Source: Clostridiales bacterium (lineage in GTDB: Bacteria; Bacillota; Clostridia; Christensenellales; Borkfalkiaceae). Taken from it: 64,000 nucleotides of DNA. Positions 14,742 to 61,291 of this stretch are shown here, one piece after another. The translations under genes and the position numbers were made by a program. Under the pieces are notes generated by a model. The model did not search any database, was not told where the DNA came from, and saw only the letters and a list, made by a program, of their open reading frames with translations. The stretch spans positions 6,628 through 70,627 of the forward strand of contig SVHK01000001.1 in assembly GCA_015055865.1 (NCBI GenBank), read 5' to 3'. Every line of letters starts with the position of its first letter. The stretch's first letter is position 1.

Positions 14742-15054
14742 TGAATAACTCCAACCGTTTATTTCTACGGCTTTTCGCCGTTTTTATACCATTTATAATT
14801 GTACTATATTTTGCTCGAAAATGAAAGCGTTTTTTACGGGTTTTGAACAAAAAATCCGTCGATTTGTCCCGAAAAGAGCTATTTTCTTTACAATATAATT
14901 ATAATTCCTTTTTAGATAGTTTAATTATAACCTTTATCCTTAAAATTTAAACAAAAAAACGCAGTCCAAAGCTATCCCTTGAACTCGCGTATTTAAAATT
15001 TGTATTTACTTTTTATTCTTTTCGCTAAAGAATACTTTATAGCAAAACACAACG

Positions 15055-15298
15055 GAAACGCAACACAGTATTGCGACTGTTACAACGTCCAGCCGTCGTT
15101 AATTGGATAGCCGTACGCAAGCTAAGAAACGCAGAGCTTGACGTAGAAATGTGACGGTTATACAAGTAAGCCCGTCGCTTGGATAGAGAAGCAAGCAGTT
15201 CAAGAAGAGCGAGCATTTCCAACGGGAGCGTACTAGCCGTACGTGACCTAGGAAACGCGGAGCTCGACGTAGAAATGCGTAGCTTATATATTCAAGCC
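15055..15298. repeat. Modular intergenic repeat, locus A (two divergent M2-type units plus an M2 tail)
   Basis: It shares ...gagcgagcattt-c--a-gggagcgtac-loop-gtacg-gacc-a-gaaacgcggagctcgacg-ag-a-tgcg... with loci B and C. It lies between the comFC stop and the secA start. Confidence 0.7.
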
Positions 15299-26018: not shown

Positions 26019-29000
26019 TTAGTTATTTGCTTTTTTTACGGCGGACTTTGCTAACTTATAATCGTTATAATCAAGCTTACCGTCTTCGTTCAAATCTTCA
26101 AGCTCTAACAAGTACTTATTCGATTGACCAAGACTTGCGCCTTCGTGCCAAGCCGCGTCCCAAGCCTCGCCACTCAAATCAAAGTGATAATAAATGAACA
26201 TATTACCGTCCAAATCGATACCGCATCTCCCAAAAGCATTCGAAGCAATCGAAGTAACGCCGACCTTTATCGAACCGTCAGCCACGATTTTTTCATCGTA
26301 AGGAAGATATACAAATTCCAAATTAGTACAACCCGCAAACGCTTTCATACCAATCGTAACTTTTTCGGGTTTATTAAAATCAAGCTCAAACGTGAACGCC
26401 AATTCTTTCAGTTTTACACAGTTTTCAAACGCACTGTTCCCGATTCTAACGCCGCGACTAAATTCCATAATTTCTTCGTCGTTGTCGTTGAGTACGGTCA
26501 ATTCAGGACAATCACTAAACGCATACGAATTGATTACGGAAATAGATTTCGGCATTCTAAACGCTGTCAACTTATCACATTCCGCAACCGCATAGTTCTC
26601 AATCGTTTCAACCGTATCGGGAAGAACTAACGTCGTAAGGTACTTACTTTCTCGGAACGTTTCTTTTAAAATTTCCTTTAATTCACGCGCGCTCGTTACA
26701 TTGTTTTTATCCGCAGGAATATTGGAAATCTCAAGCACCGTAGCATTCGAACCTAAGAATGCTTTTTCGCCTATCGATTCTACGCCTTCCAATCTTACGA
26801 CGATAGGCGTATTTACCACATCGGGCGAAGTAGAAGGAGCTAAGAATGCAAATCTAAACGCCCCGAATCCAATACTACGAACGACCAACGCTCCGTTTTT
26901 ATTACCTTGCGTTGCGATGCGTTCCAACGCCGAGCAGTAAAGGAATACGTTTTCTTCTAAAACGTCAACGGACGCAGGAAGTTCGAGTTCTTTCAAGTTC
27001 TTACAATTCGCAAACGCCGAGTCGCCAATCTCCTTCAATTCCCAAGCGACGCCTTGAACGGTAACGAATTCAACTCTTTCAAGGTTTTCGCAATTCATAA
27101 ACGTTTCGTTGTCTAAAACTTTAACGGTCGAAGGAATAACGATTTGAGTCAAACCTACGCAATCGATGAACGCCCAGTTTAAAATTTGTTGCGCGCTTGT
27201 CAACGTTACGCTAAACGCTTCGGGCATCTTATAGCTTTCCTTTGCGTGTTTACCAGAAGTATCGATACCAAAAATCCAACCGAAATGTTGTTCGCCGGAT
27301 TTCGCCGTCTTAGACTTACCAACGAACGGCAAGCTAATACTCTCAATCGCCGTACAGCCTTGGAACGCGCCGAAATCAATCATCTCAACGTTTTCAGGCA
27401 CGAGAACGGAAGTAATCGCGGTACAATCTTTAAATGCGTCCGCCGAAATCTCGTTCACGTTGTTACCAAGCGTAATCTTTTCAAGATATACACAACCTTC
27501 GAATGCGCTTTGCGCAATAACGCTTTCGCCTTGCGCACCGTCTAAAAGAACGATTTCTACCAATCTATTCGGCATTTTTTCGTTCGAACCGAAGATATAT
27601 CCGATTGTTTCGTCTTCTTCCATTTCGTTTATACCGCTATCGCGACCAACGAACGGCAAGGTCAAGCTAAGAGTTTCTCTAACGTATTGACCAAGTTCCC
27701 AATCGTATTCATCGTTGAACCCTTCTTCAAAACAACCTTCAAACGCGGATTTACCAATCGAAAGAATTGTTTTAGCTAAGTAGTTCTTCTCGCCGTTTTC
27801 GCCATATCTGATTTCTTTTAACGACGAACAACCTTTAAACGCTTCCATTCCAATCGCCGTAACTTCGGGAATAGTCAACTTGACGATATCCGAACAATTT
27901 TCAAACGCCTTATCGCCAATTTTCGTACCGCGTAAAACGATAACCGTAGCCAAACTTTCGGGTATATTCGCATTTCCTATACTACCGTTAAATACGTAGC
28001 CGAAATTAGTATTCTCGCCGTTTTCCTTTTCGCCGATGAACGGCAACGTTAAGCTTTCCAAGGAATCGCATCCAGCAAACGCCATCACGCCCATTTCCGT
28101 TACGGTTTCGGCATTGTAAACCACTTCTTTTAAGCTTGCGCAACCGTTAAACGCGCTTTCGCCAATCTTCTTCACGTCGCCACTCAACGTAATCGTTTCA
28201 AGATTGTTGCTACCGCTAAACGCGTAAGGAGCAATCACCGTCGATTTAACGATAGAAACTTCTTTCAAGCTTTGAGGTACGTCTTCGTTCTCATCAGCGA
28301 ATACGTAACCGAAATTCGTATATTCTCCGTTTTCCTTTTCACCGATGAACGGCAAGGTAATTTTTGCAAACTTAACGCTTTCAAACGCTTTCGCGCCGAT
28401 TTCTTTAATCGCGCTGAAATCGTTGATATTCGCATTTTCACCAATGCGAATAGACGCAAGCGATACGCAACGCGCAAACGCGTTTTCTTCAATCGTTTCT
28501 ACCGTTGTAGGCAACGTGATTTCTTGAACACCGCCAATCCCCGCAAACGCGTTAGCCGGAATAACTTTAGTCGTTTTCAAAACGGTAACGTATTTCAAGC
28601 TCGTCGGAACGTCTCTATTCGAACCGAAAATATACCCGAACTCTCTACCGTCGTTTTCCGTCGAACCGATATATGCAACGGTTAAACTATTGAGTTTTTT
28701 ACAACCCTTAAACGCCATATACCCAACGGTTTCGACCGTTTCGGGCAATACCACGTTCTCAAGCGCGGTACAATCTTTAAACGCGCTATCGCCAATCGAA
28801 AGTACGCCGTCAAGTTTCACGCTCTTTAACGCGGAACAGCCTTCAAACGCTCTTTCGCCGATATATTTAACCAAGTCAAGATTTTCTACTTCAACGAGCT
28901 TAGCGCAATTTTCAAACGCCGACGCGCCGATGAAAACGATGCTTTCGGGCAATTTAATTTTAAAGTTATGAGTAATTGCCAATTCTTCGCAAGCGGAACT

Positions 29001-30167
29001 AAGTACGCCCGTTACGGGATATTCCGTACCCTTCACTTTCGCCGGAATTTCAAAATAGTTTCTCGTATCGCCGTCGCCAACGATAAGTTTGGAAAGGGAA
29101 TACGTACCGTCACCATTGGGCAGGAATTCATAGGTGTACGTACCGCATTTTTCCACTTTACAACAACCGTACTCGTCGAAAGTATGTCCTACTTTTTCTT
29201 TTATTTGATAGCTGGAATCTTGCTTACCGCAATTTTCACAAATCTTATGTCTAGTCCAACCGTCTTCAACGCAAGTAGCTTGTTTCGCCTCCACCGTCTT
29301 AGTGAAGCTATGGTCGAGCAACGGCAACGCTTCAACGATTTCCGTCTTACAGGTCGAGCAGGTTTGTGTTTTTTGACCCTTTACCGTACAGGTCGATTGC
29401 GTAACTTCCGTCCAACCTGTTTCGCTTAACGTATGTTGTACGGGAATAGTTTCGTGTCCTTCCACCCAAACTCCGCAATCGGGACATTGACGACCGGGCG
29501 TATAACCTACGGTGTTCGTCAAGCAACACATCTCAACGCCTTCGTCTAACTTTTCGGGCGTATTGGGATGCTTAGGCGCGGTCATTTGATACTCGCTATT
29601 CTTCGCTCCACAACGGGTACATTCCTTGTGCTCGGTATAGCCTTCCGTTTCACAACTTGCCGAAACCGCGGGGCGAAGAACGTATGTAGGATTCGAATCG
29701 TCCCAAGAATGGTGTCCAACGGCTGGAATCTTTTCTTTTTGTACGCTATCACATTCCGTACAAACGAGCGTTCTCGACCCGTCCACCGTACACGTCGCGT
29801 TCACGCGCTTAGAGAAATCTTCTTCGTACGTATGATAACCTCTCGCAGTAATAGGCGTCGTGTACGCAACTTGAGAGCAAACTTTACATTTCGTCGTCTT
29901 TACGCCGTCTTCAAGGCAAGTTGCTTTTTTGGTAACGGTAGTTTGACCGGGCGTATGAGGCAATTTTTCCACTTCCGCTTCTTGGACCTCACGGCATCTT
30001 GCGCACTTACGCGTTTTTACACCTTCTTTTGAACAGGTAGATTGCGTAACTACCGTCCAATCACTCCAATCGTGGTTACAATCTTCCGTCAATGCAAAAA
30101 TCCCTGCGCCCAGCGCAACGACCATCGAAAGAATCCATATCACAATCGCAAGTCTTCTTTTTTTCAT
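26019..30167 (-). CDS. Large cell-surface leucine-rich-repeat (BspA-type LRR_5) protein with N-terminal Cys-rich tandem modules and a C-terminal dockerin/EF-hand-like segment
   Basis: A 1382-aa protein with an N-terminal signal/TM (LAIVIWILSMVVALGAGIFAL). It has about 7 modules of the pattern TCxxxGxxxxxCxxC...H. Many LRR units follow (IG.SAF.GC..L..I.LP). The C-terminus is DLNEDGKLDYNDYKL. Confidence 0.85.
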   Translation of the reverse strand: MKKRRLAIVIWILSMVVALGAGIFALTEDCNHDWSDWTVVTQSTCSKEGVKTRKCARCREVQEAEVEKLPHTPGQTTVTKKATCLEDGVKTTKCKVCSQVAYTTPITARGYHTYEEDFSKRVNATCTVDGSRTLVCTECDSVQKEKIPAVGHHSWDDSNPTYVLRPAVSASCETEGYTEHKECTRCGAKNSEYQMTAPKHPNTPEKLDEGVEMCCLTNTVGYTPGRQCPDCGVWVEGHETIPVQHTLSETGWTEVTQSTCTVKGQKTQTCSTCKTEIVEALPLLDHSFTKTVEAKQATCVEDGWTRHKICENCGKQDSSYQIKEKVGHTFDEYGCCKVEKCGTYTYEFLPNGDGTYSLSKLIVGDGDTRNYFEIPAKVKGTEYPVTGVLSSACEELAITHNFKIKLPESIVFIGASAFENCAKLVEVENLDLVKYIGERAFEGCSALKSVKLDGVLSIGDSAFKDCTALENVVLPETVETVGYMAFKGCKKLNSLTVAYIGSTENDGREFGYIFGSNRDVPTSLKYVTVLKTTKVIPANAFAGIGGVQEITLPTTVETIEENAFARCVSLASIRIGENANINDFSAIKEIGAKAFESVKFAKITLPFIGEKENGEYTNFGYVFADENEDVPQSLKEVSIVKSTVIAPYAFSGSNNLETITLSGDVKKIGESAFNGCASLKEVVYNAETVTEMGVMAFAGCDSLESLTLPFIGEKENGENTNFGYVFNGSIGNANIPESLATVIVLRGTKIGDKAFENCSDIVKLTIPEVTAIGMEAFKGCSSLKEIRYGENGEKNYLAKTILSIGKSAFEGCFEEGFNDEYDWELGQYVRETLSLTLPFVGRDSGINEMEEDETIGYIFGSNEKMPNRLVEIVLLDGAQGESVIAQSAFEGCVYLEKITLGNNVNEISADAFKDCTAITSVLVPENVEMIDFGAFQGCTAIESISLPFVGKSKTAKSGEQHFGWIFGIDTSGKHAKESYKMPEAFSVTLTSAQQILNWAFIDCVGLTQIVIPSTVKVLDNETFMNCENLERVEFVTVQGVAWELKEIGDSAFANCKNLKELELPASVDVLEENVFLYCSALERIATQGNKNGALVVRSIGFGAFRFAFLAPSTSPDVVNTPIVVRLEGVESIGEKAFLGSNATVLEISNIPADKNNVTSARELKEILKETFRESKYLTTLVLPDTVETIENYAVAECDKLTAFRMPKSISVINSYAFSDCPELTVLNDNDEEIMEFSRGVRIGNSAFENCVKLKELAFTFELDFNKPEKVTIGMKAFAGCTNLEFVYLPYDEKIVADGSIKVGVTSIASNAFGRCGIDLDGNMFIYYHFDLSGEAWDAAWHEGASLGQSNKYLLELEDLNEDGKLDYNDYKLAKSAVKKANN

Positions 30168-38068: not shown

Positions 38069-39079
38069 TTACTCAAATTGACTTATAAACCTAATATCGT
38101 TTTCGAATAAGGTTTTAATGTTGTTGATACCGTATTTAAGCATTGCGATACGCTCAACGCCCATACCGAACGCAAAACCCGTATATTCGTCGGGGTTTAC
38201 GCCACAGTTTTCAAGCACGTGGCGATTGACCATTCCCGCGCCGAGTACTTCAATCCAACCCGTACCCTTGCACAAACGACAACCCTTGCCACCGCATTCC
38301 GAACAACTCAAATCGACTTCTACGCTCGGTTCGGTAAACGGGAAATAAGACGGGCGCAAACGCACTTTGGTCGTTTCCGAGAACATTTTACGCGCAAACT
38401 CCGCAAGCATACCTTGCAAGTCGCAAAGCGTTATCCCCTTATCCACGACGAGTCCTTCCATTTGATGGAACATCGGCGAATGGGTCGCGTCGTCGTCCGA
38501 ACGGAATACTCTGCCGGGCGACAAAATTTTAATCGGGGGAGATTGTTTTTCCATCACTCGAATTTGCCCAGCCGAAGTTTGGGTGCGGAGCAAAAGATTT
38601 TCGGCGAGATAGAAAGTATCTTGCATATCCCTTGCCGGGTGGTCTTTCGGCGTGTTCAACGCGGTAAAGTTATAGTAATCCGTTTCGATTTCAGGGCCTT
38701 CGAAAACCTTAAAACCCATTCCTGCGAAAATGTCGATTAATTCGTTTTTAACGAGCGTAATCGGATGCAACGCGCCGTTTTTGCGATTTTTACCGGGCAT
38801 AGAAATGTCGATACGTTCCTTTTCGTACTTCGCTTGCATTTCCTTTTCGCGTACGACGATAGCGCGCAATTCGAACTTCTCTTCCATTGCTTGCTTGAAC
38901 TCGTTGACGATTTTACCAAACGCAGGTTTTTCTTCTTTAGGCAAATCTTTCATTCCGCCCATAATCGTCTTAAGCTCTGCTTGAAACTTGAGTTTTAATT
39001 GATACAACTCAGTTCCCGTCGCGGTTTTTTCCATTGCGAGCTCGATTTCGCTACGCAAGTTTTCAATTTTTTCTTTCAT
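38069..39079 (-). CDS. pheS: Phenylalanine--tRNA ligase alpha subunit
   Basis: Class II motifs are present ([46 protein letters not shown]). An AAGGAG RBS is present. Confidence 0.96.
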
Positions 39080-39132
39080 ATTTCGTAAATTCTCCTTAAG
39101 AATTTATTTATTTTTTGTAATTGTTTATGGTG

Positions 39133-39500
39133 GTATTACTCGTCAACTGAGCAACGTCCCGTTGCATCGAGTCTTTCTATCTTTCCGCTACGCTTGGGTG
39201 TTACCTACTCGTCAACCAACCAAGCCTGTGCTTGGCGTTAGATACGAGCAAGACAAGAAGAGCGAGCATTTTCGCAGGGAGCGTACTTAGGCGTACGCGA
39301 CCAAAACGCACGCAGTTGCGACAATTATACGATTAAGCGTTATAGCCGTGCTTGGCGTTAGATACGAGCAAGACAAGGAAAGCGAGCATTTTCGCAGGGA
39401 GCGTACTAAATCGTACGCGACCAAGAAAACGCGGAGCTTGACGCAGTATTGCGAAGTATATAACGTCAAGCGTTATAATTGCGACGGTTATACGATTAAA
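39133..39500. repeat. Modular intergenic repeat, locus B (M1 unit followed by two M2 units at a 120-nt period)
   Basis: M1 spans 39133-39225, M2 39230-39345 and M2 39350-39500. The two M2 copies share gcttggcgttagatacgagcaagacaag-a-agcgagcattttcgcagggagcgtac. The locus lies between the T-box terminator and the pheS RBS. Confidence 0.85.
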
Positions 39501-39504
39501 CATA

Positions 39505-39770
39505 TAAAAGCCCTGCGAGAAAAAACCTTTCCTCGCAGGGCGTTAAACCGCTGTACCACCTACGTTCGTACGATAAACCGTACCTTATTTTCGCAATTAC
39601 GTCGCGTAATACGTTCCTTCCTACTTGCTTAAAAAATAAGTTTCAAAAGGACAGCTCCAAAGCGAAACGGCGTTTTTCCTTTCCACACGCGATTTTCAGC
39701 CCACGACCGCGCTCTCTTTCGAAGAAAATCAACGAAAAACCCAACTTTTTCATAGCCTTTATTCGATTGT
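39505..39770 (-). promoter_or_regulatory. T-box leader (tRNA-sensing riboswitch) of pheST
   Basis: On the minus strand it has an AGAGAG box, the T-box sequence GUAGGUGGUACAGCGG (39564-39548) and the terminator CCCUGCGAG...CUCGCAGGG plus CUUUU (39540-39505). A UUC triplet is present in the stem I 3' side. Confidence 0.75.
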
Positions 39771-39776
39771 AAATTT

Positions 39777-39805
39777 ATTATACCTTTTTTTAAAAATTAA
39801 GTCAA
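39777..39805 (-). promoter_or_regulatory. Sigma-A promoter of the pheS T-box leader (TTGACT-17-TATAAT)
   Basis: On the minus strand the -35 lies at 39805-39800 and the -10 at 39782-39777. Confidence 0.65.
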
Positions 39806-39827
39806 CCGTTTTTTTAATTAAACCCCG

Positions 39828-40478
39828 TTATTTTTCAGCGTTCGCTTTCAAAATATCTCGGATTTCTTTCAAAAGAAGAACGTTTTCGTTCGCTTTTTCT
39901 TCCGCCAATCTTTTTTCTTCTTCCAAAGCCTTTGCTTCTTGCATTTCCTTTTCCGCTTTCTTGATTTCCGCGTCTTTCACGTCTTGCAAATATTTCGCTT
40001 TCGCTTCCGCTTTGCTCATTCCTTGCATTCTATATTCAAAAATAATTTTCTTGCGTCTATAAATCACCATTTGTTCGTCCGCAAACTTATCTTGCGCCGC
40101 CGCGATTTTATTAATAATCCGAACGATGGAAAAGAGCACGAACGCAATCAATAAAAAGTTAATAATCGAACTGATAAACGAGCCCCAATCGATATAAATG
40201 GAGTTCGCTAAGTCAATCACTTTCGCGCCCGTTTCGTCAAGCGTATAGGCGGGAGAAAGCATCGTAACCGCACCTTCCAAACCGTCTTTACCAATTAAAA
40301 TCGCAATCAACCAATTAATAACCGGCTTTAAAATAAAATTACTCATTCCGTTGACAATCGCCGTAAACGCACCGCCAACGATAACGCCGACGGACATATC
40401 CAACACGTTCCCGCGCGTAATAAATTTTTTAAATTCCGCAAAAAACAACTTCACTTTTTCGCCTTTCACTTTCGCCAT
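39828..40478 (-). CDS. mscL: Large-conductance mechanosensitive channel with a long charged C-terminal extension
   Basis: The N-terminus FKKFITRGNVLDMSVGVIVGGAFTAIVN is canonical MscL. The protein is 216 aa versus the usual 130-150 or so, with a K/E/A-rich tail. Confidence 0.85.
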   Translation of the reverse strand: MAKVKGEKVKLFFAEFKKFITRGNVLDMSVGVIVGGAFTAIVNGMSNFILKPVINWLIAILIGKDGLEGAVTMLSPAYTLDETGAKVIDLANSIYIDWGSFISSIINFLLIAFVLFSIVRIINKIAAAQDKFADEQMVIYRRKKIIFEYRMQGMSKAEAKAKYLQDVKDAEIKKAEKEMQEAKALEEEKRLAEEKANENVLLLKEIRDILKANAEK

Positions 40479-45035: not shown

Positions 45036-45171
45036 GGCGTAGGAAGAGTATATTGGCTTACGCCAAAGTGTCGTTCGCAACCAACTCTGCTATTCTTTCC
45101 TACTCTTGCAACTTTGCTCACTCGCGCGAACCCCCGTTAATTCGGGCTTTCTTTTACGCTCTTCCTGCGCC

Positions 45172-45198
45172 AAAGAAAAAACAGCACTTCCGTGCTGT
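45172..45198 (-). terminator. Intrinsic terminator ending the tRNA-Ser transcription unit
   Basis: On the minus strand ACAGCAC GGAA GUGCUGU is followed by UUUUUUC. The stem can extend to about 27 bp through the flanking inverted tRNA 3'-end copies (45159-45218). Confidence 0.6.
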
Positions 45199-45357: not shown

Positions 45358-45409
45358 TTTTCGGTGTACATAAAGAAATAGGAACGGAAACCATCCGCTC
45401 CTATTTCTT

Positions 45410-45498
45410 TGGCGCAGGAAGAGGGATTCGAACCCCCGTGGGCTTTCACCCAAACGGTTTTCAAGACCGCCTCGTTATGACCGCTTCGATATTCCTGC
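45410..45498 (-). tRNA. tRNA-Ser (anticodon UGA), CCA encoded
   Basis: A manual cloverleaf gives acceptor GCAGGAA/UUCCUGC, a 3-bp D stem, anticodon stem GCGGU/ACCGU with loop CUUGAAA, long variable arm UGGG-UGAAAG-CCCA, T-arm GGGGG-UUCGAAU-CCCUC and discriminator G followed by CCA. Confidence 0.92.
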
Positions 45499-45788: not shown

Positions 45789-48614
45789 TTACTCTACGGA
45801 ATTGAAAAGCCGTTTTAAGAATTGCCCCGTGTAGCTGTCTTCACATTCCGCGATTTGTTCAGGCGTACCCGTTGCAACGATTGTACCCCCACCACTACCC
45901 CCTTCAGGGCCTAAATCAATTACGTAATCCGCCGTCTTAATAACGTCCAAATTATGTTCAATGACGATTACCGTATTTCCTGCCGAACGGAGCTTTAATA
46001 AGATTTTCAAAAGTTTATCGACGTCGTAAGTGTGCAAACCCGTCGTCGGCTCGTCCAAAATATACACCGTCTTGCCCGTCGAACGTTTGGAAAGTTCGGT
46101 CGCAAGTTTCACTCTTTGCGCTTCACCGCCCGAAAGGGTCGTCGAGCTTTGACCCAGCTTGATATATCCAAGCCCCACTTCGTTCAAAGTCTTGATTTTA
46201 TTATAAATACTTGGCACGGGTGCAAAGAATTCGCACGCTTCTTCGACCGTCATATCGAGTACGTCGAAAATACTCTTGCCCTTGTACTTAACTTCGAGCG
46301 TTTCACGGTTATACCGTTTCCCCGCGCACACTTCGCAAGGCACGAAAATATCGGGTAAGAAGTGCATTTCAATTTTTATAATACCGTCGCCGAAACAGTG
46401 TTCACACCTACCCCCTGCCACGTTGAACGAGAACCTGCCCGGCTTATAACCGCGTTCTTGCGCGTCGGGAGTCATTGCAAACAAATCGCGTATCGCGTTG
46501 AATACGCCCGTATAGGTTGCAGGGTTACTTCTCGGCGTTCTGCCAATCGGGGACTGGTCAATCGCAATTACTTTATCAAAATGCTCCACCCCGTCAATGC
46601 GCGCGTATTTCCCAAGCGGTTGACGTGCGCCGTTGAGTTCGTTGGCGAGCGTAGGATATAAAATCTCGTTGACCAAACTCGATTTACCGCTACCCGACAC
46701 CCCCGTTACCGCAGTAATTAACCCTGCCGGGAACTCCACGTCGATATTTTTCAAATTATTTTGTTGACAACCGCAAACTTTCAACCACCTGCCGTCGGGT
46801 TTTGCTCGAAGCGCAGGTATTTCAATTTTTCGTCTACCGGCAAGATAATCGCCCGTAATCGAATTCGGCTCAGCCATTACGTCCACTCGCGTACCGCTTA
46901 CGACGATTTCCCCGCCGTGTACCCCTGCTTTCGGACCGATATCGACGATATAGTCCGCTTCTTTAATGGTATCTTCGTCGTGTTCGACGACAATTAACGT
47001 ATTTCCTAAATCCCGAAGTCCTTTCAAGGACTGAATGAGTTTCTCGTTATCGCGTTGATGAAGTCCGATACTCGGCTCGTCCAAAATATAGAGTACGCCC
47101 GTGAGTGCGCTACCGATTTGCGTCGCCAAACGAATACGTTGGCTCTCCCCACCCGAAAGCGTATTGGCAGTACGGGTCAAGGTCAAATAATTAAGCCCAA
47201 CGTTCCTTAAAAAGCCTAAACGGTTGCGAATTTCTTTAATAATGGCGTCGGCAATCAAATGCTCGGTCGGCGTAAACTCCGCCGTAATTTTATCGATAAA
47301 CGCGTATAAATCGTCAATGGACAGTTCGCACGTTTCCCAAATATTTTTACCGCCGACGGTAACCGACAACGCTTCCCTTTTTAAACGTTTTCCGTGACAG
47401 CAAACACAGGGTGCGGAGCGCATCAACCGTTCGATTTCGTATTTGACTCCGTCCGACGTACTCGTCGCATAACGGCGTTGTAAGTTATTCACGTACCCTT
47501 CCCATTGTTTTTTAAAACTACCGCTAAACGAACGGGTCTTGTACGACATATCCAACTTTTCTTTCGCTCCGTACATCAACACGTCGTACACTTCTTGGCT
47601 CAACTCCTGCACGGGTACGTCGAGCGAAAAGTCGTACGCTTTAGCAAGCGCGGAAAGTTCCATCAACGCCATTGATTGCGACCCTAAACTCCAGCCCGTC
47701 ACTTTCATCGCGCCTTCGCGAAGCGTTTTTGTTTTATCCGGACAAATCAAATCGGGGTCAACCACCTGTTTAAAGCCCAAGCCGTAACATTCGGGACAAG
47801 CGCCGTAGGGGGTATTGAACGAAAACATTCTCGGTTCAATTTCTTCAAGCGAAATACCGCAATCGGGGCAGGCGTAATTGACGGAATACAACTCTTCCTT
47901 ACCGTCGCAATCGATAACGACAAGTCCGCTGGCAAGTTTCAACGCCGTTTCCAAACTGTCCGTCAAACGTTTTTGAATGGTCGGTTTCACAACCAAACGG
48001 TCAACAACGACGGAAATATCGTGTTTAATATTCTTTTCAAGCTTGATTTCTTCTTGCAAATCGTAAACGATACCGTCAATCTTTACCCGACCATAACCGC
48101 TCTTTTTAAACCCGTTCAACTCCTTGACGTACTCGCCCTTTCTACCGCGAACGACGGGCGCGTTAATCAAAATTTTGCTTCCTTCGGGCATTGCCATTAC
48201 TTTGTCCGCAATCTCGTCCACCGTTTGACGGCGGATTTCCTTACCGCAGTTAGGACAATGGGGTACGCCGATTCTTGCGAATAACAAACGGAAATAATCG
48301 TAAATTTCCGTAACCGTCCCAACGGTAGAACGGGGGTTGTGCGAAGTGGTTTTTTGGTCGATAGAAATGGCAGGCGAAAGCCCGTCGATACTCTCGACGT
48401 CCGGTTTTTCCATTTGGCCTAAAAACTGACGGGCGTAGGACGACAAACTCTCTACGTACCGCCTTTGCCCTTCGGCAAAAATAGTATCGAACGCGAGCGT
48501 GGATTTACCGCTACCCGAAAGCCCCGTGAACACGGTTAACGTGTTGCGGGGGATTGTCAAATCGACGTTTTTAAGATTATTTTGTTTTGCGCCTTTTATT
48601 ACGATTTCTTCCAT
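45789..48614 (-). CDS. uvrA: Excinuclease ABC subunit A
   Basis: A 941-aa protein with two ABC ATPase modules ([18 protein letters not shown]), LSGGE signatures and zinc-finger CxxC pairs. Confidence 0.97.
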
Positions 48615-48628
48615 ATTTAACCTAAAAT

Positions 48629-50602
48629 TTATTTCATCGCTTTGCGTAATACTTGCTTTAATTCCGCAATTTTTTCACGAATTTCGATTGCGCGTTCAAA
48701 GTCAAGCTGACCGCTTGCAACTTTCATCAACGCTTTGAGTTTCTCTATCTCGTCGGGAATTTCCTTTAATGGTATATCGTCTATATTCGAGCGTTTTTTC
48801 GTGATATTCAACGCCGATTTGATTTGTTTGACGATAGTTTTAGGCACAATCCCGTGCGCCTTGTTGTATTCGTCTTGTACTTTCCTTCTTCGATTAGTTT
48901 CGTCAATCGCCCGACGCATACTGTCCGTAACCACGTCCGCGTACATAATAACCCTGCCTTCGCTGTTTCGCGCCGCGCGACCTATCGTTTGAATGAGCGA
49001 CGTTTCGCTACGCAAAAAACCTTCCTTGTCCGCGTCGAGAATCGCTACCAGCTTGACTTCAGGCAAGTCCAACCCTTCGCGGAGCAAATTAATTCCGCAA
49101 AGTACGTCGAAATCCCCGTTGCGAAGTCCGTTGATAATATCTACTCTCTCTAACGTGTCGATATCGCTATGCATATACTTTACTTTCACCGAACGTTCTT
49201 TCAAGTAATCCGTCAATTCTTCGGACATTTTCTTGGTTAAGGTCGTAATCAAAACCCTGCCCCCGTCGTTTACGACTTTATGCACTTCCGAAAGCAAGTC
49301 GTCTATCTGCCCGCGCGTCGGTTTTACGGTAATTTCGGGGTCTAACAGCCCCGTAGGACGAATAAGTTGTTCCACTTTTTGCCCCGCCTCGTTTAATTCG
49401 TAGGGGGCAGGTGTGGCGGAAACGCAAATCATTTGCGGTACGCGCGCGTCGAATTCGTCAAAGGTAAGCGGTCTGTTATCGAACGCCGATTTCATTCTAA
49501 AGCCGTATTCGACGAGATTTTTCTTTCTGGATAAGTCCCCGTGATACATTGCACGGATTTGCGGAATAGTCATGTGGCTCTCGTCGATAAACACTAAAAA
49601 TTCACCGCTGGGGAAATAATCGAGCAAAGTAAAAGACGGTTCGCCGGGACTACGCCCGTCGAAATATCTGCTGTAATTTTCGATACCGCTACAATACCCG
49701 ATTTCTCGCATCATTTCCAAATCGTGTTCACAGCGTTGTTTCAAGCGTTGCGATTCTAAAATTTTTCCGTCCTCTTCAAACGCGCGCACTTCCCCTTTCA
49801 AGTCTTCTTCTATCATCGCAATCGCCGACTTGAGTTTTTCCGTACCGACGGCGTATTGACTCGCAGGGAAAATCGCCACGTGCGAAAGCTCGTTGATTTT
49901 TTTGCCCGTCAACGCTTCCACTTCGTAAATCCTATCGATTTCGTCGCCGAAAAATTCCACGCGAATAGCAACTTCGGAGTTTGATGCAGGAAAAATTTCT
50001 ACGCTATCCCCACGCACGCGAAAAGTCGAACGTTTAAAATCGACGTCGTTTCTCGCGTATTGGAGTTCTATCAACTTTCTAAGCAACGCGTTGCGCTCCC
50101 ACTCCATACCCGGTCGCAAAGAAATGGACAAGCGAAAATACTCTTCAGGCGCGCCAAGCCCGTAAATGCAGGACACCGAAGCGACCACGATAACGTCCTT
50201 TCTTTCCATCAACGCACCCGTCGCGCTGTTGCGGAGTTTGTCTATTTCGTCGTTTAAACTTAAATCCTTTTCAATATACGTATCGGTTGACGGAATATAG
50301 CTTTCGGGCTGATAATAATCGTAGTAAGACACGAAATACTCAACCCTGTTATCGGGAAAGAACTCTTTGAACTCGTTACAAAGCTGAGCCGCAAGCGTTT
50401 TATTATGCGCTATCACGAGCGTGGGTCGACCGACGTTTTTAATGACGTTCGCCATCGTGAACGTCTTACCACTACCCGTAACCCCGACGAGTACCTGCGT
50501 TCGAATCCCGTCAAGCACCCCTTCGGTCAATTTTTCAATCGCTTGCGGTTGGTCGCCCGTAGGCTGAAAGGGCGATACTAATTTAAATTGAATTGTTTCC
50601 AT
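48629..50602 (-). CDS. uvrB: Excinuclease ABC subunit B
   Basis: It has the Walker A motif [10 protein letters not shown], helicase motifs and a C-terminal UVR domain. An AAGGGGGA RBS is present. Confidence 0.97.
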
Positions 50603-50619
50603 TTTTTATCCCCCTTAAC

Positions 50620-50862
50620 GAAGTATTGCGACCAAGCTCGTGCTTAATCGGAGAACCGAGCAACAACGTCCCGTTGTATCGAGTTTTTCTATCTTTCTTT
50701 TGCGGTTTGATTGTTCGCACTCGTAACTGACCAAAGCAGTGTTTAATCGGAGAACCGAGCAAGACAAGGAAAGCGAGCATTTTCGCAGGGAGCGTACTAA
50801 ATCGTACGTGACCAAGAAAACGCGGAGCTCGACGCAGTATTGCGACGGTTATACGATTAAGC
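50620..50862. repeat. Modular intergenic repeat, locus C (M2 tail, variant M1, variant M2)
   Basis: It shares the M1 core gagcaacaacgtcccgttgtatcgag..ttctatcttt and the M2 core gagcaagacaaggaaagcgagcattttcgcagggagcgtactaaatcgtacg with loci B and D. It starts 18 nt upstream of the uvrB ATG. Confidence 0.85.
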
Positions 50863-50865
50863 AAC

Positions 50866-50879
50866 CGAACATTCGTTTG
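50866..50879. promoter_or_regulatory. LexA/DinR (Cheo) box upstream of uvrB
   Basis: CGAACATTCGTTTG compared with the consensus CGAAC-N4-GTTCG has one mismatch. It lies 12 nt downstream of the -10 of the uvrB promoter. Confidence 0.6.
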
Positions 50880-50891
50880 CTTTCAAAAAAT

Positions 50892-50920
50892 ATTATACCA
50901 CATTTTTAATAAAAAGTAAA
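50892..50920 (-). promoter_or_regulatory. Sigma-A promoter of uvrBA (TTTACT-17-TGgTATAAT)
   Basis: On the minus strand the -35 lies at 50920-50915 and the -10 at 50897-50892, with an extended TG. Confidence 0.55.
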
Positions 50921-51061
50921 CGATTTGAGTAAAAATTTTTGCTATTTTTCAACAATCGGTCTTACAAATAATACTACACCCATTTTTTTTTTGCGTTTTT
51001 AGCGTTATACGCTATGATTTTTTTTTTAAATGTGTTATAATAAATATAATAAGGAGTTTTT

Positions 51062-54458: not shown

Positions 54459-54525
54459 GCAACGTTCCGTTGCATCAACTTTTTTTCTATCTTTTCGTTA
54501 CGCTAAAGCGTTGCTTATTCGTCAA
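54459..54525. repeat. Degenerate M1-type repeat unit, locus E (murF-ddl spacer)
   Basis: gcaacgttccgttgcatcaac-ttttttctatcttttcgttacgct---gcgttgcttattcgtcaa aligns with M1 of locus B (39151-39215) by eye. Confidence 0.55.
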
Positions 54526-54538
54526 TTTCTTAACGGGA

Positions 54539-58327: not shown

Positions 58328-58890
58328 TACAATTTAAGTCCTTTAATAAAGTTGGATAATCGCTTGTATAAAAGCAAAGTCAAAACGCTGATTGCGAGCG
58401 TTTTGATAAGGTTGAACGCTAAAATAAACAAAAACGTATCCTTAAATACCGCTTCTGCGCCTGCGCCCATATACAGCGGAAAATTAATAAACCGATTGGT
58501 TATAAGCGAAACGAACGTACCGAGCAAACAACCGCCTAAAAGCGCAGGAATAACGTATTTTAACCCTTTTTTATAGCGATATAAAATAGACGGTAGCAAG
58601 ATATACGCGCTAGTCACGAACATATTCGCAAGCTCGCCCACGCCCCCCGTACTCCCCGTCGGAATACGGATAAGCTCTTTTAATACGCAAACGATAACCC
58701 CTTCGATAGGACCTAATAAAAAGCCGATTAATAGAATAAAGGTGTTCCCAAAATCAAGCTTTAAAAAAGGCGTTGCCGGAAAAATGGGAAAATCAATTAA
58801 GCTTACTACGTAAGCAAGCGCGGTAAAAACCGCCATTAAAGTGATGCGTTTGGTCGTAAAAATTCTTTTACTCTTTTTTTCTCCGTTCAT
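58327..58890 (-). CDS. ribU: ECF-type riboflavin transporter S component (RibU/FmnP-like)
   Basis: A 187-aa protein with 5-6 TM helices, preceded by an FMN riboswitch. Confidence 0.8.
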   Translation of the reverse strand: MNGEKKSKRIFTTKRITLMAVFTALAYVVSLIDFPIFPATPFLKLDFGNTFILLIGFLLGPIEGVIVCVLKELIRIPTGSTGGVGELANMFVTSAYILLPSILYRYKKGLKYVIPALLGGCLLGTFVSLITNRFINFPLYMGAGAEAVFKDTFLFILAFNLIKTLAISVLTLLLYKRLSNFIKGLKL

Positions 58891-58941
58891 AAAAACACTC
58901 CGAATATTTATTGCAAATACCCCTTGCGTTCTTTACGAACG

Positions 58942-59060
58942 TTCTTTTCTCATCCGGACTATACCGTCGGTTTTGGAATTTCACCAAATCGGGAAACGTT
59001 TAAAACACGTTTCTTCGCAGACTTTACTGCCGGTGGGGAATTACGCCCCGCCCCAAAGAA
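58942..59060 (-). promoter_or_regulatory. FMN riboswitch (RFN element)
   Basis: On the minus strand it reads GGGGCGGGGCGUAAUUCCCCACCGGCAGUAAAGUCUGCGAAG...CCGAUUUGGUGAAAUUCCAAAACCGACGGUAUAGUCCGGAUGAGAAAAGAA, which matches the conserved RFN core blocks. Confidence 0.87.
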
Positions 59061-59074
59061 TATTTACGATATTT

Positions 59075-59103
59075 ATTATACTATCAACGCTTTAAGAAGT
59101 CAA
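59075..59103 (-). promoter_or_regulatory. Sigma-A promoter of the FMN riboswitch/ribU unit (TTGACT-17-TATAAT)
   Basis: On the minus strand the -35 lies at 59103-59098 and the -10 at 59080-59075. Confidence 0.65.
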
Positions 59104-59123
59104 GCACTCTTACGCATATTACA

Positions 59124-59467
59124 AAAAACAACCCTATAGTCGCTCTTCCTGTAGGGAATTGCGACAACTAAATAAATCCTTACGGATTTGTGATATTCGT
59201 CTAACGACGAGTGATATTGCCTTTCGGCAGTTATATTCGCCTGACGGCGAGTTAAGGATTTATTTAATATAACTTTGGCGTAGCCAAAATATAACTGCTT
59301 GTAAAACAAGCAATACAACTTTTAGCCACAAGGCTAAAAATATAACTTATTAAACTTAATCTTTTGTGGATAAGAAAAGCCCACCATATTTCGCTTTTTG
59401 CGAAGTATAGTGGGCTATACTTTTGTTATGAACTAAAAATCCCTAAGAGCGACTAAGGGTTGTTTTT
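59124..59467. repeat. Inverted-repeat-bounded element containing a tandem array of mini-hairpins (MITE-like element or structured RNA)
   Basis: The terminal inverted repeats are aaaaacaaccct(a)tagtcgctctt (59124-59147) and aagagcgactaagggttgttttt (59445-59467). Inside are 3 units of GTGATAT plus hairpin (59190-59250), 4 units of ATAYAAC plus hairpin (59267-59375) and a 17-bp terminator-like hairpin (59378-59416). Confidence 0.6.
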
Positions 59468-59494
59468 CTTTTTTTAATTTGAGAGCATAAGCCT

Positions 59495-59822
59495 GCTTGG
59501 CGTTAGATACGAGCAACAACGTCCCGTTGTATCGAGTCTTTCTATCTTTCCGCTACGCTTGGGTGTTGCCTTCTCGTCAACCAAGCTCTTGCTTGGCGTT
59601 AGCTACGAGCAACAACGTCCCGTTGTATCGAGCCTTTCTATCTTTCCGCTACGCTTGGGAGTTGCCTTCTCGTCAACCAATTAAACTCGTGCTTGGCGTT
59701 AGATACGAGTAAGACAAGGCGTATTGAGTACGCCGACGGGAGTTTACTTTATCGTAAACGAGCTAGGCGCACGGAAATACAACGCAGTATTACGAAGTAT
59801 ATAACGCCAAGAGAACGTCAAG
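59495..59822. repeat. Modular intergenic repeat, locus D (two M1 units at a 96-nt period plus a divergent M2-like unit)
   Basis: M1 at 59495-59586 and M1 at 59591-59680 differ at 3 of the first 90 positions. A third unit starts with the same gcttggcgttagatacgag arm at 59691. The locus lies directly downstream of the histidine kinase stop. Confidence 0.85.
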
Positions 59823-59824
59823 AG

Positions 59825-61291
59825 TTAGTTAAAATAGACGTAAAAGGTCGAACCTTCCCCCACCTTACTATCCACACCGAAATTGAAGTTGTGTTTTTCT
59901 AAAATACTTTTGACGATGGAAAGCCCTAAACCCGTACCGTTCACGGGTCGTTTATGCGTTTCGCCCGAACGGTAATACCTATCCCAAATAGTAGAAAGTT
60001 CTTCTTTTTTTATACCTTTACCCGTATCGCGGACGGAGAACTTAACGGTGGAATTTTCACGTTTTAAGCTGATATATACCTTTTTATCGTCGCCCGTGTA
60101 GTTGACGGCGTTCCCGATTAAATTGTATAAAACTTGACCGATTTTTATTTCGTCCGCTTGAATGAATAAGCCGTCGTCAATGTCAAGCAAAAAGGTATAC
60201 CCTTTGTTTTCAACAAGGTAAACGAACCTGTCTAACACGTCGTATAAATAACTCGACACGTCGAATTTTGTTATTTTTAAAGCATCTAACCCCGAACGGA
60301 TTTTGGACAAATCCAACACGTCGGAAACGAGCGAAGTAAGCCTATCTGCTTCGTCTTCGATAACTTGTGCGTGCTTATTGCGTTTTTCGGGATTATCGCC
60401 CGAAATTTCGCGTATCATCGACGCGTACGCCTTAATCATCGTCAACGGCGTTTTGAAATCGTGCGAAACGTTCGCAATCAATTCCTTTTGCATTTTATCC
60501 GCCTTTGAAATTTCGTCGCGCGCAAAATTTAGCGTACCTGCTAATTCAACGATTTCGTCGCCGTACGCCCCGTCACTGAAATCGACTTCATAATCCCCCC
60601 TTGCAAACCGCCGAGTTTTTTCAGTGAGCATCGTCAAGGGTTTGACGAGCGCGCCCGAAATCGCGCTGGATACCGCAAAAGAAAGAATAAATACGAGCAA
60701 CGCAATCAAAATCATTCGAACGGTCATTTGCCCCATAACGCCGTGTAAAAACTGTAAATCGGTATTCACGTAAAGGTAAATGGGTTGTCCGTCGTAAAAA
60801 CCAAGCGACGCGCCGTAGACGTATTCGCGCGAAGCAGAATATACGACTGATTTACCGCCGTTTTGTTTGAGTTTTTCAAGCAAAATACGCGCTTCTTGTG
60901 CGTAGTCGCTACGGAAAGTATCACCGCCGTCATCGGAGATTCCGCCGTTGGGCGAATATACTTTTCCGTCCGCGCCGAGAATACAAACGTTGACGTCGTT
61001 AGAAGAACTTAAGTAACGAATGAACTCGCTGAACTGTTCGCTTTCTAAATCGTACAAGGAAGTGCGCGCCAAAACCGTTTCGATTTGCTTACCCTTTTCA
61101 ACGAGCGTTTTTTCCGTTTGACGTTCGTAAGTTTCACGAATGAGATAGCTTTGCGAAAAGGAAACTAAAAGTACGATTAAAAAAGAAAAAAGCGCGAACG
61201 CCGACCAAAGCAAAAAGTAAATACTTCCGCTTTTTTGTTTCGCTCGCGTCGCGCCTCGCTTAATTTTCGCTCTGAATTTTCCGTTCGCCAT
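59825..61291 (-). CDS. Sensor histidine kinase (TM-sensor-TM-HAMP-HisKA-HATPase_c)
   Basis: It has the H-box VSHDFKTPLTMI, N-box LIGNAVNYT and G-boxes DTGKGI / GTGLGLSIV. Confidence 0.9.
   Translation of the reverse strand: MANGKFRAKIKRGATRAKQKSGSIYFLLWSAFALFSFLIVLLVSFSQSYLIRETYERQTEKTLVEKGKQIETVLARTSLYDLESEQFSEFIRYLSSSNDVNVCILGADGKVYSPNGGISDDGGDTFRSDYAQEARILLEKLKQNGGKSVVYSASREYVYGASLGFYDGQPIYLYVNTDLQFLHGVMGQMTVRMILIALLVFILSFAVSSAISGALVKPLTMLTEKTRRFARGDYEVDFSDGAYGDEIVELAGTLNFARDEISKADKMQKELIANVSHDFKTPLTMIKAYASMIREISGDNPEKRNKHAQVIEDEADRLTSLVSDVLDLSKIRSGLDALKITKFDVSSYLYDVLDRFVYLVENKGYTFLLDIDDGLFIQADEIKIGQVLYNLIGNAVNYTGDDKKVYISLKRENSTVKFSVRDTGKGIKKEELSTIWDRYYRSGETHKRPVNGTGLGLSIVKSILEKHNFNFGVDSKVGEGSTFYVYFN

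What the first reader, a model, noticed from the sequence alone, without database searches (positions are those of the whole stretch)
50620..50862. The same repeat family forms nearly the whole uvrB 5' UTR, between the LexA-box promoter and the RBS
**Location.**
- The uvrB promoter (TTTACT-17-TATAAT, 50920-50892) and a Cheo-type LexA box (50866-50879) lie about 265 nt upstream of the uvrB ATG.
- The interval between them is occupied by an M2 tail, an M1 variant and an M2 variant.

**Arm variant and closing helix.**
- In this locus the usual 5' arm gcttggcgttagatacgag is replaced by g(c/t)ttaatcggagaaccgag.
- In the M2 unit this variant arm (50741-50757) is complementary to the unit's own 3' end cggttatacgattaagc (50846-50862).
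- The pairing is 9 bp, then 1 bp, then 5 bp, separated by two single-nucleotide mismatches. This gives a long closing helix that the other arm type cannot form.

**Strand clue.**
- This helix and the inner hairpin gcgtac/gtacgt each contain a G-T pair.
- That pair is a legal G-U wobble only if the plus strand is the RNA.
- On the minus-sense uvrB mRNA it becomes a C-A mismatch.
- It is therefore unclear whether the functional strand is the mRNA sense or an antisense transcript.
Basis: partly seen in the sequence, partly recalled or inferred. Interest (0 to 1): 0.65.

Follow-up and report, generated by a model that had tools for sequence, protein, structure and literature searches.

The report
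Mobile hairpin repeats in uvrB leader
About 85% of the untranslated leader of the DNA-repair gene uvrB in this uncultured gut Clostridia bacterium is made of a strain-specific, hairpin-forming intergenic repeat family that close relatives lack at this site, so it looks like a passenger insertion rather than a dedicated uvrB control element.

Summary
A conserved promoter (TTTACT-17-TATAAT) and LexA box lie about 265 nt upstream of the uvrB ATG. The interval between them holds an M2 fragment, an M1 unit and an M2 unit of a repeat family.

- **Copies:** at least 8 loci in about 72 kb, and roughly 15-25 near-identical copies per genome.
- **Presence in relatives:** the promoter and LexA box are conserved in five relatives. 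The repeats are absent from three of them (UvrB 96%, 93% and 90% identical). The two 98% relatives carry different unit sets.
- **Structure:** M2 is a 120-nt rod with strong covariation (21 of 33 pairs compensatory). Each arm type has its own matching partner. M1 has no significant fold.
- **Strand clue:** Family-wide, wobble sites are balanced, 9 on the plus strand and 8 on the minus strand. The plus strand still folds better, because its internal loops are purine-purine (55 versus 2).
- **Orientation:** it follows the chromosome, not transcription. uvrB mRNA carries the minus form and the thiT leader carries the plus form.

Best reading: this is a REPIN/BIME/MITE-like repeat cotranscribed passively with uvrB. 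It is a new member of a known kind, of modest interest. No RNA data exist.

The parts
50915..50920 (-). uvrB promoter -35 hexamer (TTTACT)
   Evidence: Found by the consensus scan. Conserved in L012, L013, L014, L015 and L019.
50892..50897 (-). uvrB promoter -10 hexamer (TATAAT, with TG upstream)
   Evidence: Conserved in all five relatives.
50866..50879 (.). Cheo-type LexA (SOS) box, CGAACATTCGTTTG
   Evidence: It is the only zero-mismatch match in the window. It is conserved in all five relatives, and L014 carries a second box.
50741..50863 (+). Complete M2 unit with B-type arms: a 120-nt rod hairpin. The uvrB mRNA carries its reverse complement.
   Evidence: nhmmer E 5e-34. Fold of -46.0 kcal/mol (+, z -6.5) against -36.8 (-, z -4.4). 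Covariation.
50638..50740 (+). M1 unit with a B-type 5' arm. It has a small conserved hairpin (ACAACG-TCC-CGTTGT) and a pyrimidine tract, and no significant overall fold.
   Evidence: nhmmer E 1e-24. Fold z-scores of -1.2 and +0.9.
50620..50637 (+). Truncated M2 3' tail, which is the 5' fragment when read in the uvrB mRNA sense
   Evidence: It aligns with the start of the second M2 of L012.
50609..50616 (-). uvrB Shine-Dalgarno sequence (AAGGGGGA), 6 nt before the ATG
   Evidence: Read from the sequence. A local fold pairs it with UCUCC of the adjacent repeat arm, but no better than shuffled sequences do.
48629..50602 (-). uvrB coding sequence
   Evidence: NCBIfam NF003673, 1044 bits.
15052..15298 (+). 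Family array upstream of secA: M2 tail, partial M2 and complete M2 (C-type arms)
39131..39502 (+). Family array upstream of pheS: M1, M2, M2 and an M2 tail
54459..54526 (+). M1 fragment upstream of ddl
   Evidence: Absent from L013.
59495..59812 (+). Family array downstream of the histidine kinase gene: M1, M1, M2
   Evidence: The unit number varies between strains, and the array is absent from L013.

Best explanation
**What it is.** The uvrB leader has been colonised by a lineage-specific, non-coding, modular repeat family.
- M2 is a 120-nt rod hairpin.
- M1 is a 96-nt unit that shares the 5' arm with M2.
- There are also truncated tails.
- The family is of the REPIN/BIME/MITE/BOX kind.

**How it behaves.**
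- The units spread and are reshuffled at the DNA level, by insertion next to or into existing units and by unequal recombination.
- They do so in one fixed orientation along the chromosome.
- They settle only in intergenic DNA.

**What happened at uvrB.**
- They landed between the SOS operator and the ribosome-binding site.
- SOS control by LexA stays intact.
- The repeats are simply cotranscribed as the reverse complement of the better-folding strand.
- The leader grew from about 55 nt to about 283 nt.

**Shown versus inferred.**
- Shown: the repeat anatomy, the covariation, presence and absence among relatives, and the orientation rule.
- Inferred: transcription from the conserved promoter through the repeats, and the DNA-level mode of spread.
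- Inferred: any effect on uvrB is secondary, for example a stable 5'-proximal hairpin changing mRNA half-life, or weak pairing of the arm's UCUCC with the Shine-Dalgarno sequence.
For: **Multicopy and intergenic**
- There are five loci in the window and three more within 8 kb to its right.
- The depth of the M1 and M2 cores is 15-25 times the unique depth in runs dominated by this organism.

**Lineage-specific and unstable**
- The uvrB leader holds an M2 fragment, M1 and M2 in the window.
- It holds M2+M2 in L012 and a fragment, M2 (C arms) and M1 in L019. Both have 98% identical UvrB.
- It holds no repeat in L013 (96%), L014 (93%) or L015 (90%). All of these keep the promoter and LexA box.
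- The kinase-downstream array has 3, 1 or 0 units in different strains.
- The thiT leader has 2 or 3 units.
- The ddl-upstream fragment is absent from L013.

**Structure is maintained**
- 93% of cells are paired and 21 of 33 pairs show compensatory changes.
- The covariation score is 0.507, against 0.208 for shuffles (0 of 500 reach it) and at most 0.16 for slid partners.
- Compensatory hairpin changes, tandem arrays and arrays in opposite orientations at different genome positions are all described for REPINs (PMC3116915).

**Orientation follows the chromosome**
- All 8 loci, plus one in L014, have the same orientation.
- This holds although thiT lies on the other strand. There a TTGACT-17-TATAAT promoter (11/12) reads through the plus form of M2 into a TPP riboswitch-like aptamer.

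**No sign of an alternative**
- There is no alternative promoter or terminator inside the uvrB repeats.
- There is no Rfam family match.
Against: - No transposase (RAYT or other) lies in the window or its 18 kb of flanks.
- No target-site duplication is visible when the filled uvrB site is compared with the empty one.
- Conserved purine-purine internal loops and covarying helices point to selection on one folded strand. A pure junk model does not explain that.
- The better-folding strand is the one with the sequence of the nascent lagging strand (GC skew). This is the opposite of what the IS200/IS605 and RAYT single-strand mechanism would predict (my reading of established knowledge).
- No transcript data exist, so cotranscription is inferred.
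Confidence: 0.6

Rival explanations
1. M2 is a functional structured RNA or RNA motif whose active strand is the purine-rich window plus strand. It could bind a protein through its G-A loops. At uvrB it would act as an antisense transcript or would not be expressed. In the thiT leader it would be expressed in cis.
For: - The plus strand folds 1-12 kcal/mol better in every unit.
- Opposed bases in internal loops are 55 purine-purine against 2 pyrimidine-pyrimidine, and 77% of unpaired bases are purines.
- This purine excess runs against a pyrimidine-rich local plus strand.
- Tandem G-A/A-G next to the apex hairpin stays conserved while the flanking helices covary.
- A strong promoter reads the plus form in the thiT leader.
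Against: - No promoter drives the plus strand at uvrB.
- Presence, unit number and position vary between near-identical strains.
- The family occurs in 5' leaders in both orientations and in convergent and 3' intergenic regions.
- There is no terminator after the units.
- There is no Rfam match.
- Sheared G-A pairs stabilise single-stranded DNA hairpins as well, so the asymmetry does not prove an RNA.
Confidence: 0.17
2. The repeats are a dedicated post-transcriptional control device for uvrB, such as an mRNA stabiliser, a translational brake through SD pairing, or an attenuator. On this view they were selected at this locus.
For: - The repeats lie exactly between the operator and the SD.
- Three strains keep an array bounded by the same B-type outer arms.
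- The arm's UCUCC can pair with the GGGGG of the SD.
- A stable rod starts about 22 nt from the predicted TSS.
Against: - The repeats are absent from relatives with 96%, 93% and 90% identical UvrB, which keep the promoter and box with 55-100-nt leaders.
- The inner content differs in each strain that has them.
- The SD-pairing fold is no better than shuffled sequence (z -0.96).
- The whole-leader fold on the mRNA strand is not exceptional (z -0.76).
- There is no terminator-like site.
- The same units sit next to unrelated genes: secA, pheS, ddl, rpsP and thiT.
Confidence: 0.1
3. The elements are retro-mobilised or otherwise copied through an RNA or cDNA intermediate of the plus strand. This would explain why truncated copies are always 3' tails in the plus orientation.
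For: - All partial M2 copies are 3' parts in the plus orientation: 50620-50637, 15052-15172, 39478-39502, L019 9713-9737 and L021 3113-3142.
- The plus strand is purine-loaded.
Against: - No reverse transcriptase lies nearby.
- Tails occur at either end of arrays.
- Recombination between units explains the tails equally well.
- There is no poly-A or other priming signature.
Confidence: 0.05

Closest known systems
REPINs and REP/BIME arrays (RAYT-associated; Pseudomonas, Enterobacteria)
   Same: - Extragenic, with tens of copies or more.
- A hairpin of about 100-120 nt with frequent compensatory changes.
- Tandem clusters, and insertion next to or into existing units.
- Arrays whose orientation depends on genome position (PMC3116915).
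   Different: - No short conserved REP core with a GTAG-type 5' tetranucleotide. The arms vary while the internal loops are conserved.
- No RAYT gene was seen, although the genome is not available.
- The host is an uncultured Clostridia lineage.
- The better-folding strand lies on the unexpected replication strand.
Correia repeat-enclosed elements (CREE/NEMIS) of Neisseria
   Same: - Small non-autonomous repeats cotranscribed with neighbouring genes.
- One sits 5' of uvrB in N. gonorrhoeae and affects its transcription (PMC2649163).
- Presence differs between strains.
   Different: - CREE have fixed 26-bp terminal inverted repeats, a TA duplication, an IHF site and outward promoters.
- Here no outward promoter is predicted and no duplication was seen.
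- The uvrB promoter here is the ancestral SOS promoter upstream of the insertion.
BOX elements of Streptococcus pneumoniae, and MITEs in general
   Same: - Modular build: M1, M2 and tails here, boxA, boxB and boxC there.
- Intergenic, and able to form stable hairpins within mRNAs.
- Variable module number.
   Different: - No sequence relation.
- BOX elements and most MITEs occur in both chromosomal orientations, whereas this family was found in one orientation in 8 of 8 loci.
- No parent insertion sequence is known.
Cis-regulatory leader RNAs (riboswitches, attenuators)
   Same: Structured RNA lying between the promoter and the start codon.
   Different: - Not conserved with the gene across relatives.
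- Multicopy, and found next to unrelated genes.
- No expression platform or terminator.

Membership tests
REPIN / REP (RAYT-mobilised) | Two inverted halves form a hairpin of about 100 nt, and compensatory changes maintain it | tested here: met
   93% of cells are paired and 21 of 33 pairs are compensatory. Both controls are exceeded.
REPIN / REP (RAYT-mobilised) | Short, highly conserved REP core at both ends with a conserved 5' GTAG-like tetranucleotide | tested here: not met
   The arms are the most variable part, with at least five types. The invariant columns lie in internal loops and the apex, and no terminal GTAG is present.
REPIN / REP (RAYT-mobilised) | A cognate single-copy RAYT (Y1 HUH transposase) gene in the genome | not testable with these tools
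   The genome is absent from the searchable collections. No such gene lies in the 64 kb window or its 18 kb of flanks.
REPIN / REP (RAYT-mobilised) | Extragenic and multicopy | tested here: met
   Eight intergenic loci lie within about 72 kb. Core depth is 15-25 times the unique depth.
MITE | Terminal inverted repeats shared with a parent insertion sequence | tested here: inconclusive
   M2 ends are inverted repeats, but they vary and covary. No parent IS is available. M1 ends pair over only 4-11 bp.
MITE | Target-site duplication flanking the insertion | tested here: not met
   The uvrB site was compared between filled copies (window, L012, L019) and the empty copy (L013). The junction is gttcgttc^aatt, with no duplicated flank. 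The downstream flank has diverged, so this is a weak test.
Correia element (CREE) | 26-bp TIR, TA duplication, IHF site, and promoter elements at the ends | tested here: not met
   No promoter-like site lies inside the units and the termini are different. The analogy is in position only.
Gene-specific cis-regulatory leader RNA of uvrB | Conserved together with the gene in related genomes | tested here: not met
   Absent from L013, L014 and L015, and of different composition in L012 and L019.
Any Rfam 15 family | Match to a curated covariance model | tested here: not met
   No hit on any repeat at the gathering score across the whole window. No hit at E<=10 on 50550-51000.
LexA-regulated (SOS) promoter of Bacillota | GAAC-N4-GTTC-type box overlapping the promoter or TSS, conserved in relatives | tested here: met
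   CGAACATTCGTTTG lies 13 nt after the -10 and is the only perfect pattern hit in the window. It is conserved in five relatives. LexA binding itself was not tested.

The most novel reading that the evidence does not exclude
M2 may be a previously undescribed structured nucleic-acid element of uncultured gut Clostridia.
- Its active form would be the purine-rich strand, with conserved tandem G-A loops and covarying helices.
- It would either be the substrate of an unknown, replication-strand-specific mobilisation system that uses the strand opposite to that of IS200/IS605 and RAYT systems, or be a protein-binding RNA module that is functional when transcribed in the plus form, as in the thiT leader.
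Probability: 0.22. Interest if true: 0.6.

Novelty: new member of a known kind. Interest (0 to 1): 0.33.

Why it matters
- **Annotation.** A long, highly structured 5' UTR downstream of a LexA box can be a recent passenger insertion rather than a regulatory device. This matters when leaders are annotated in metagenome-assembled genomes.
- **Repeat biology.** The family is a clean case of a modular, covarying, orientation-locked repeat in a Clostridia lineage, where such elements are poorly catalogued. Arrays coincide with strain-level length variation and possible rearrangement breakpoints.
- **Possible new mechanism.** If the strand asymmetry reflects a mobilisation mechanism, it would differ from the known single-strand transposition model.
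- **uvrB.** The practical question is whether a 230-nt insertion between operator and SD changes SOS-induced expression.

Tried and rejected
- **Public collection scans.** I scanned genome contigs and metagenome contigs with the M1 core. Only chance hits came back (their low scores are shown).
- **Viral contigs, phage records and plasmid records.** No match, so nothing links the family to a phage or plasmid.
- **RNA runs.** None could be listed, so the TSS and the transcribed strand could not be tested.
- **Rfam.** No match at the gathering score or at the permissive threshold.
- **G-U versus A-C counting.**
  - The hairpin-half alignment gave 34 against 53.
  - The consensus helices gave 9 against 8 sites.
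  - The result is balanced, so I rejected this as a strand discriminator.
- **Whole-leader folds.** They are not exceptional: z -0.76 on the mRNA strand and -2.34 on the plus strand. The signal lies in single M2 units.
- **K-turn reading of the tandem G-A.** Rejected, because no 3-nt bulge adjoins the G-A pairs (read).
- **Integron attC reading.** Rejected, because the flanking genes are housekeeping genes and no R'/R'' core sites are present.
- **Internal promoter or terminator in the repeats.** None found.
- **Extending the window to the right.** Two look-ups failed because of start-codon choice. A third, with the corrected start of the response regulator, worked.
- **Extending the window to the left.** The 10 kb on that side holds no copies.

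Full report
**1. What is at the coordinates**

- uvrB (48629-50602, minus strand) and uvrA (45789-48614) are unambiguous.
- The 460-nt region between uvrB and a divergent PLPC-family gene holds one sigma-70-like site, TTTACT-17-TATAAT with an upstream TG, at 50920-50892 on the minus strand.
- Thirteen nucleotides after the -10 lies CGAACATTCGTTTG (50866-50879). It is the only perfect match to CGAACNNNNGTTYG in the window.
- Profile searches built from the window's own copies place an M1 unit at 50645-50739 and an M2 unit at 50742-50862.
- 50620-50637 is the 3' tail of a further M2 unit.
- The repeats therefore fill about 243 of the roughly 283 nt between the predicted start site and the ATG.
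- The Shine-Dalgarno sequence AAGGGGGA follows directly.

**2. The family**

- Copies lie at 15052-15298 (upstream of secA), 39131-39502 (upstream of pheS), 50620-50863, 54459-54526 (upstream of ddl) and 59495-59812 (downstream of a histidine kinase gene).
- A contig of the same strain reaches 8 kb beyond the right end of the window and adds three arrays:
  - ffh-rpsP;
  - the convergent rimM/thiT spacer;
  - the thiT leader.
- The 10 kb to the left of the window, and the first 15 kb of the window, hold none.
- In runs where this organism has a unique depth of 11-14, the M1 core reaches about 300 and the M2 core about 190-230 at 93% likeness or more. This means some 15-25 near-identical copies per genome equivalent.
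- Nothing similar exists in Rfam, phage records, plasmid records or viral contigs.
- The organism is an uncultured Clostridia bacterium of herbivore guts. Its UvrB is 88% identical to that of Candidatus Scatosoma pullicola.

**3. Comparison with relatives: the decisive result**

I fetched the uvrB neighbourhood from relatives by exact look-up of UvrB homologues. All keep the TTTACT-17-TATAAT promoter and the LexA box. The leader itself differs:

| Source | UvrB identity | Leader content |
|---|---|---|
| window | - | M2 fragment, M1, M2 |
| L012 | 98% | two M2 units |
| L019 | 98% | M2 fragment, M2 with C-type arms, M1 |
| L013 | 96% | about 55 nt, no repeat |
| L014 | 93% | short, no repeat |
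| L015 | 90% | short, no repeat |

The three filled leaders share only the outermost B-type arms. Other loci behave the same way:

- The kinase-downstream array has three units here, one in L019 and none in L013.
- The thiT leader has two or three units.
- The ddl fragment is missing from L013.

The repeats are therefore a recent and unstable addition to an ancestral SOS-controlled leader. They are not a conserved part of uvrB control.

**4. Structure**

- Single M2 units fold into a 120-nt rod on either strand, with z-scores of -3.5 to -9.4.
- On 15 distinct units, 93% of cells in 33 consensus pairs are standard pairs and 21 pairs show changes on both sides.
- The covariation score is 0.507, against 0.208 for shuffles (0 of 500 reach it) and at most 0.16 for slid partners.
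- The arms come in at least five types, each with its own complementary 3' end. The arms covary.
- M1 has only a small conserved hairpin and short closing pairs, and no significant overall fold.
- When both unit types are present, M1 always lies 5' of an M2 in the plus orientation, in five of five arrays.

**5. Which strand**

Position 50742 is C in all related contigs, and 50809 is C in about three quarters of copies.
- Across the family, wobble-compatible sites in the consensus helices number 9 for the plus strand and 8 for the minus strand.
- A looser hairpin-half alignment gives 34 against 53.
- A conserved A-C on the plus strand is a conserved G-U on the minus strand.
- Even so, the plus strand is 1-12 kcal/mol more stable in every unit. 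The cause is that opposed bases in symmetric internal loops are purine-purine on the plus strand (38 G-A, 13 A-G, 4 A-A) against two pyrimidine-pyrimidine, and that 77% of unpaired bases are purines.
- This purine excess stands against a locally pyrimidine-rich plus strand (GC skew -0.10 to -0.17).
- Tandem G-A/A-G next to the apex hairpin stays fixed while the neighbouring helices covary.
- One strand thus looks selected for folding. Sheared G-A pairs stabilise DNA hairpins as well as RNA (established knowledge), so this does not show that an RNA is the active form.

**6. Orientation**

- All eight loci of this genome, and one in L014, have the same chromosomal orientation.
- Most neighbouring genes are on the minus strand, but thiT is not.
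- In the thiT leader a TTGACT-17-TATAAT promoter (11 of 12) reads through two or three M2 units in the plus form. It continues into a TPP riboswitch-like aptamer (43.6 bits, E 3e-7, below the gathering score), a terminator-like hairpin and the thiT start.
- So uvrB mRNA carries the minus form and thiT mRNA carries the plus form.
- Orientation follows the chromosome, most simply the replichore, and not transcription. This speaks for a DNA-level process and against a single RNA-level function.
- By GC skew the minus strand is the leading strand. The better-folding strand therefore equals the nascent lagging strand, which is the opposite of what the IS200/IS605 single-strand model would predict. 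I cannot explain this.

**7. Effect on uvrB**

- No promoter-like or terminator-like site lies inside the repeats on the mRNA strand.
- The whole-leader fold is not exceptional.
- A local fold pairs the arm's UCUCC with the SD, but no better than shuffled sequence does.
- No RNA data exist.
- The most likely reading is passive cotranscription, with at most a secondary effect on mRNA stability or translation.

**8. Comparison with known elements, and verdict**

- The family behaves like REPINs/BIMEs in four respects: hairpins kept by compensatory change, tandem clusters, position-dependent array orientation, and extragenic location (PMC3116915).
- It also resembles modular BOX elements and MITEs.
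- A small repeat 5' of uvrB is known in Neisseria gonorrhoeae, where the Correia element supplies a promoter (PMC2649163).
- Membership in any of these families fails or cannot be tested: there is no conserved REP core, no duplication, no transposase in reach and no sequence similarity.
- I file it as a new member of a known kind, of modest interest.
- The purine-strand asymmetry and the orientation rule are the points worth following up.

Noticed in passing
window 59165-59475 (+): - A Gut-1 RNA hit (53.2 bits, above the gathering score) is the start of a larger plus-strand array of 7-8 short hairpins separated by ATATAAC/GTGATAT-like spacers.
- The fold z-score is -7.4.
- The array ends in a plus-strand terminator-like hairpin with a T-run, directly before the M1/M2 array.
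- The whole block is absent from relative L013.
   Followed up: partly
L002 840-1725, compared with window 58880-59840 and L021 3113-3360: - Contig L002 joins the ffh-downstream repeat array directly to the ribU side of the kinase-downstream array.
- This skips about 9 kb that includes rpsP and rimM.
- It is either a recombination between two arrays or an assembly chimera at the repeats.
   Followed up: partly
L022 9718-18023; L023 12150-16841: In two other strains the DNA after the kinase-downstream array is a different block: an ECF sigma factor plus several proteins without Pfam hits, on the opposite strand. The array therefore sits at a strain-specific breakpoint.
   Followed up: no
L021 5733-5830 (-): A TPP riboswitch-like aptamer lies upstream of thiT (yuaJ). 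At 43.6 bits it scores below Rfam's gathering score of 54.3. It lacks the P3 extension, and a terminator-like hairpin follows it.
   Followed up: partly
window 58938-59064 (-): An FMN riboswitch (113 bits) lies upstream of an ECF riboflavin transporter S-component gene.
   Followed up: no
window 39079-39828: The pheS upstream region holds the M1-M2-M2 array and a terminator of the upstream mscL gene. No T-box leader was detected by Rfam at the gathering score.
   Followed up: no
window 4846-6498 (+): A 550-aa ORF on the minority strand contains 12-nt-period repeats coding for an acidic, Val/Glu/Pro-rich sequence. It has no Pfam hit on record.
   Followed up: no
window 26019-30167 (-): A 1382-aa BspA-type leucine-rich-repeat protein. 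Its internal DNA repeats account for repeat families D5, D8, D12 and D16.
   Followed up: no
window 45159-45185 and 45397-45423: A 27-nt inverted repeat, 89% complementary, with arms 211 nt apart. The second arm overlaps the 3' end of tRNA-Ser(UGA) at 45410-45498 (-).
   Followed up: no
L014 9536-9990; L020 9590-10044: Relatives with 93% identical UvrB have a 118-aa ORF inserted upstream of the uvrB promoter. They also have two LexA-like boxes in a short leader.
   Followed up: no
window 50602-50866, run X19: One contig of a bovine metagenome joins 50602 to 50866, and also 50926 to 51028. This fits a relative that lacks the repeat block in the uvrB leader.
   Followed up: partly
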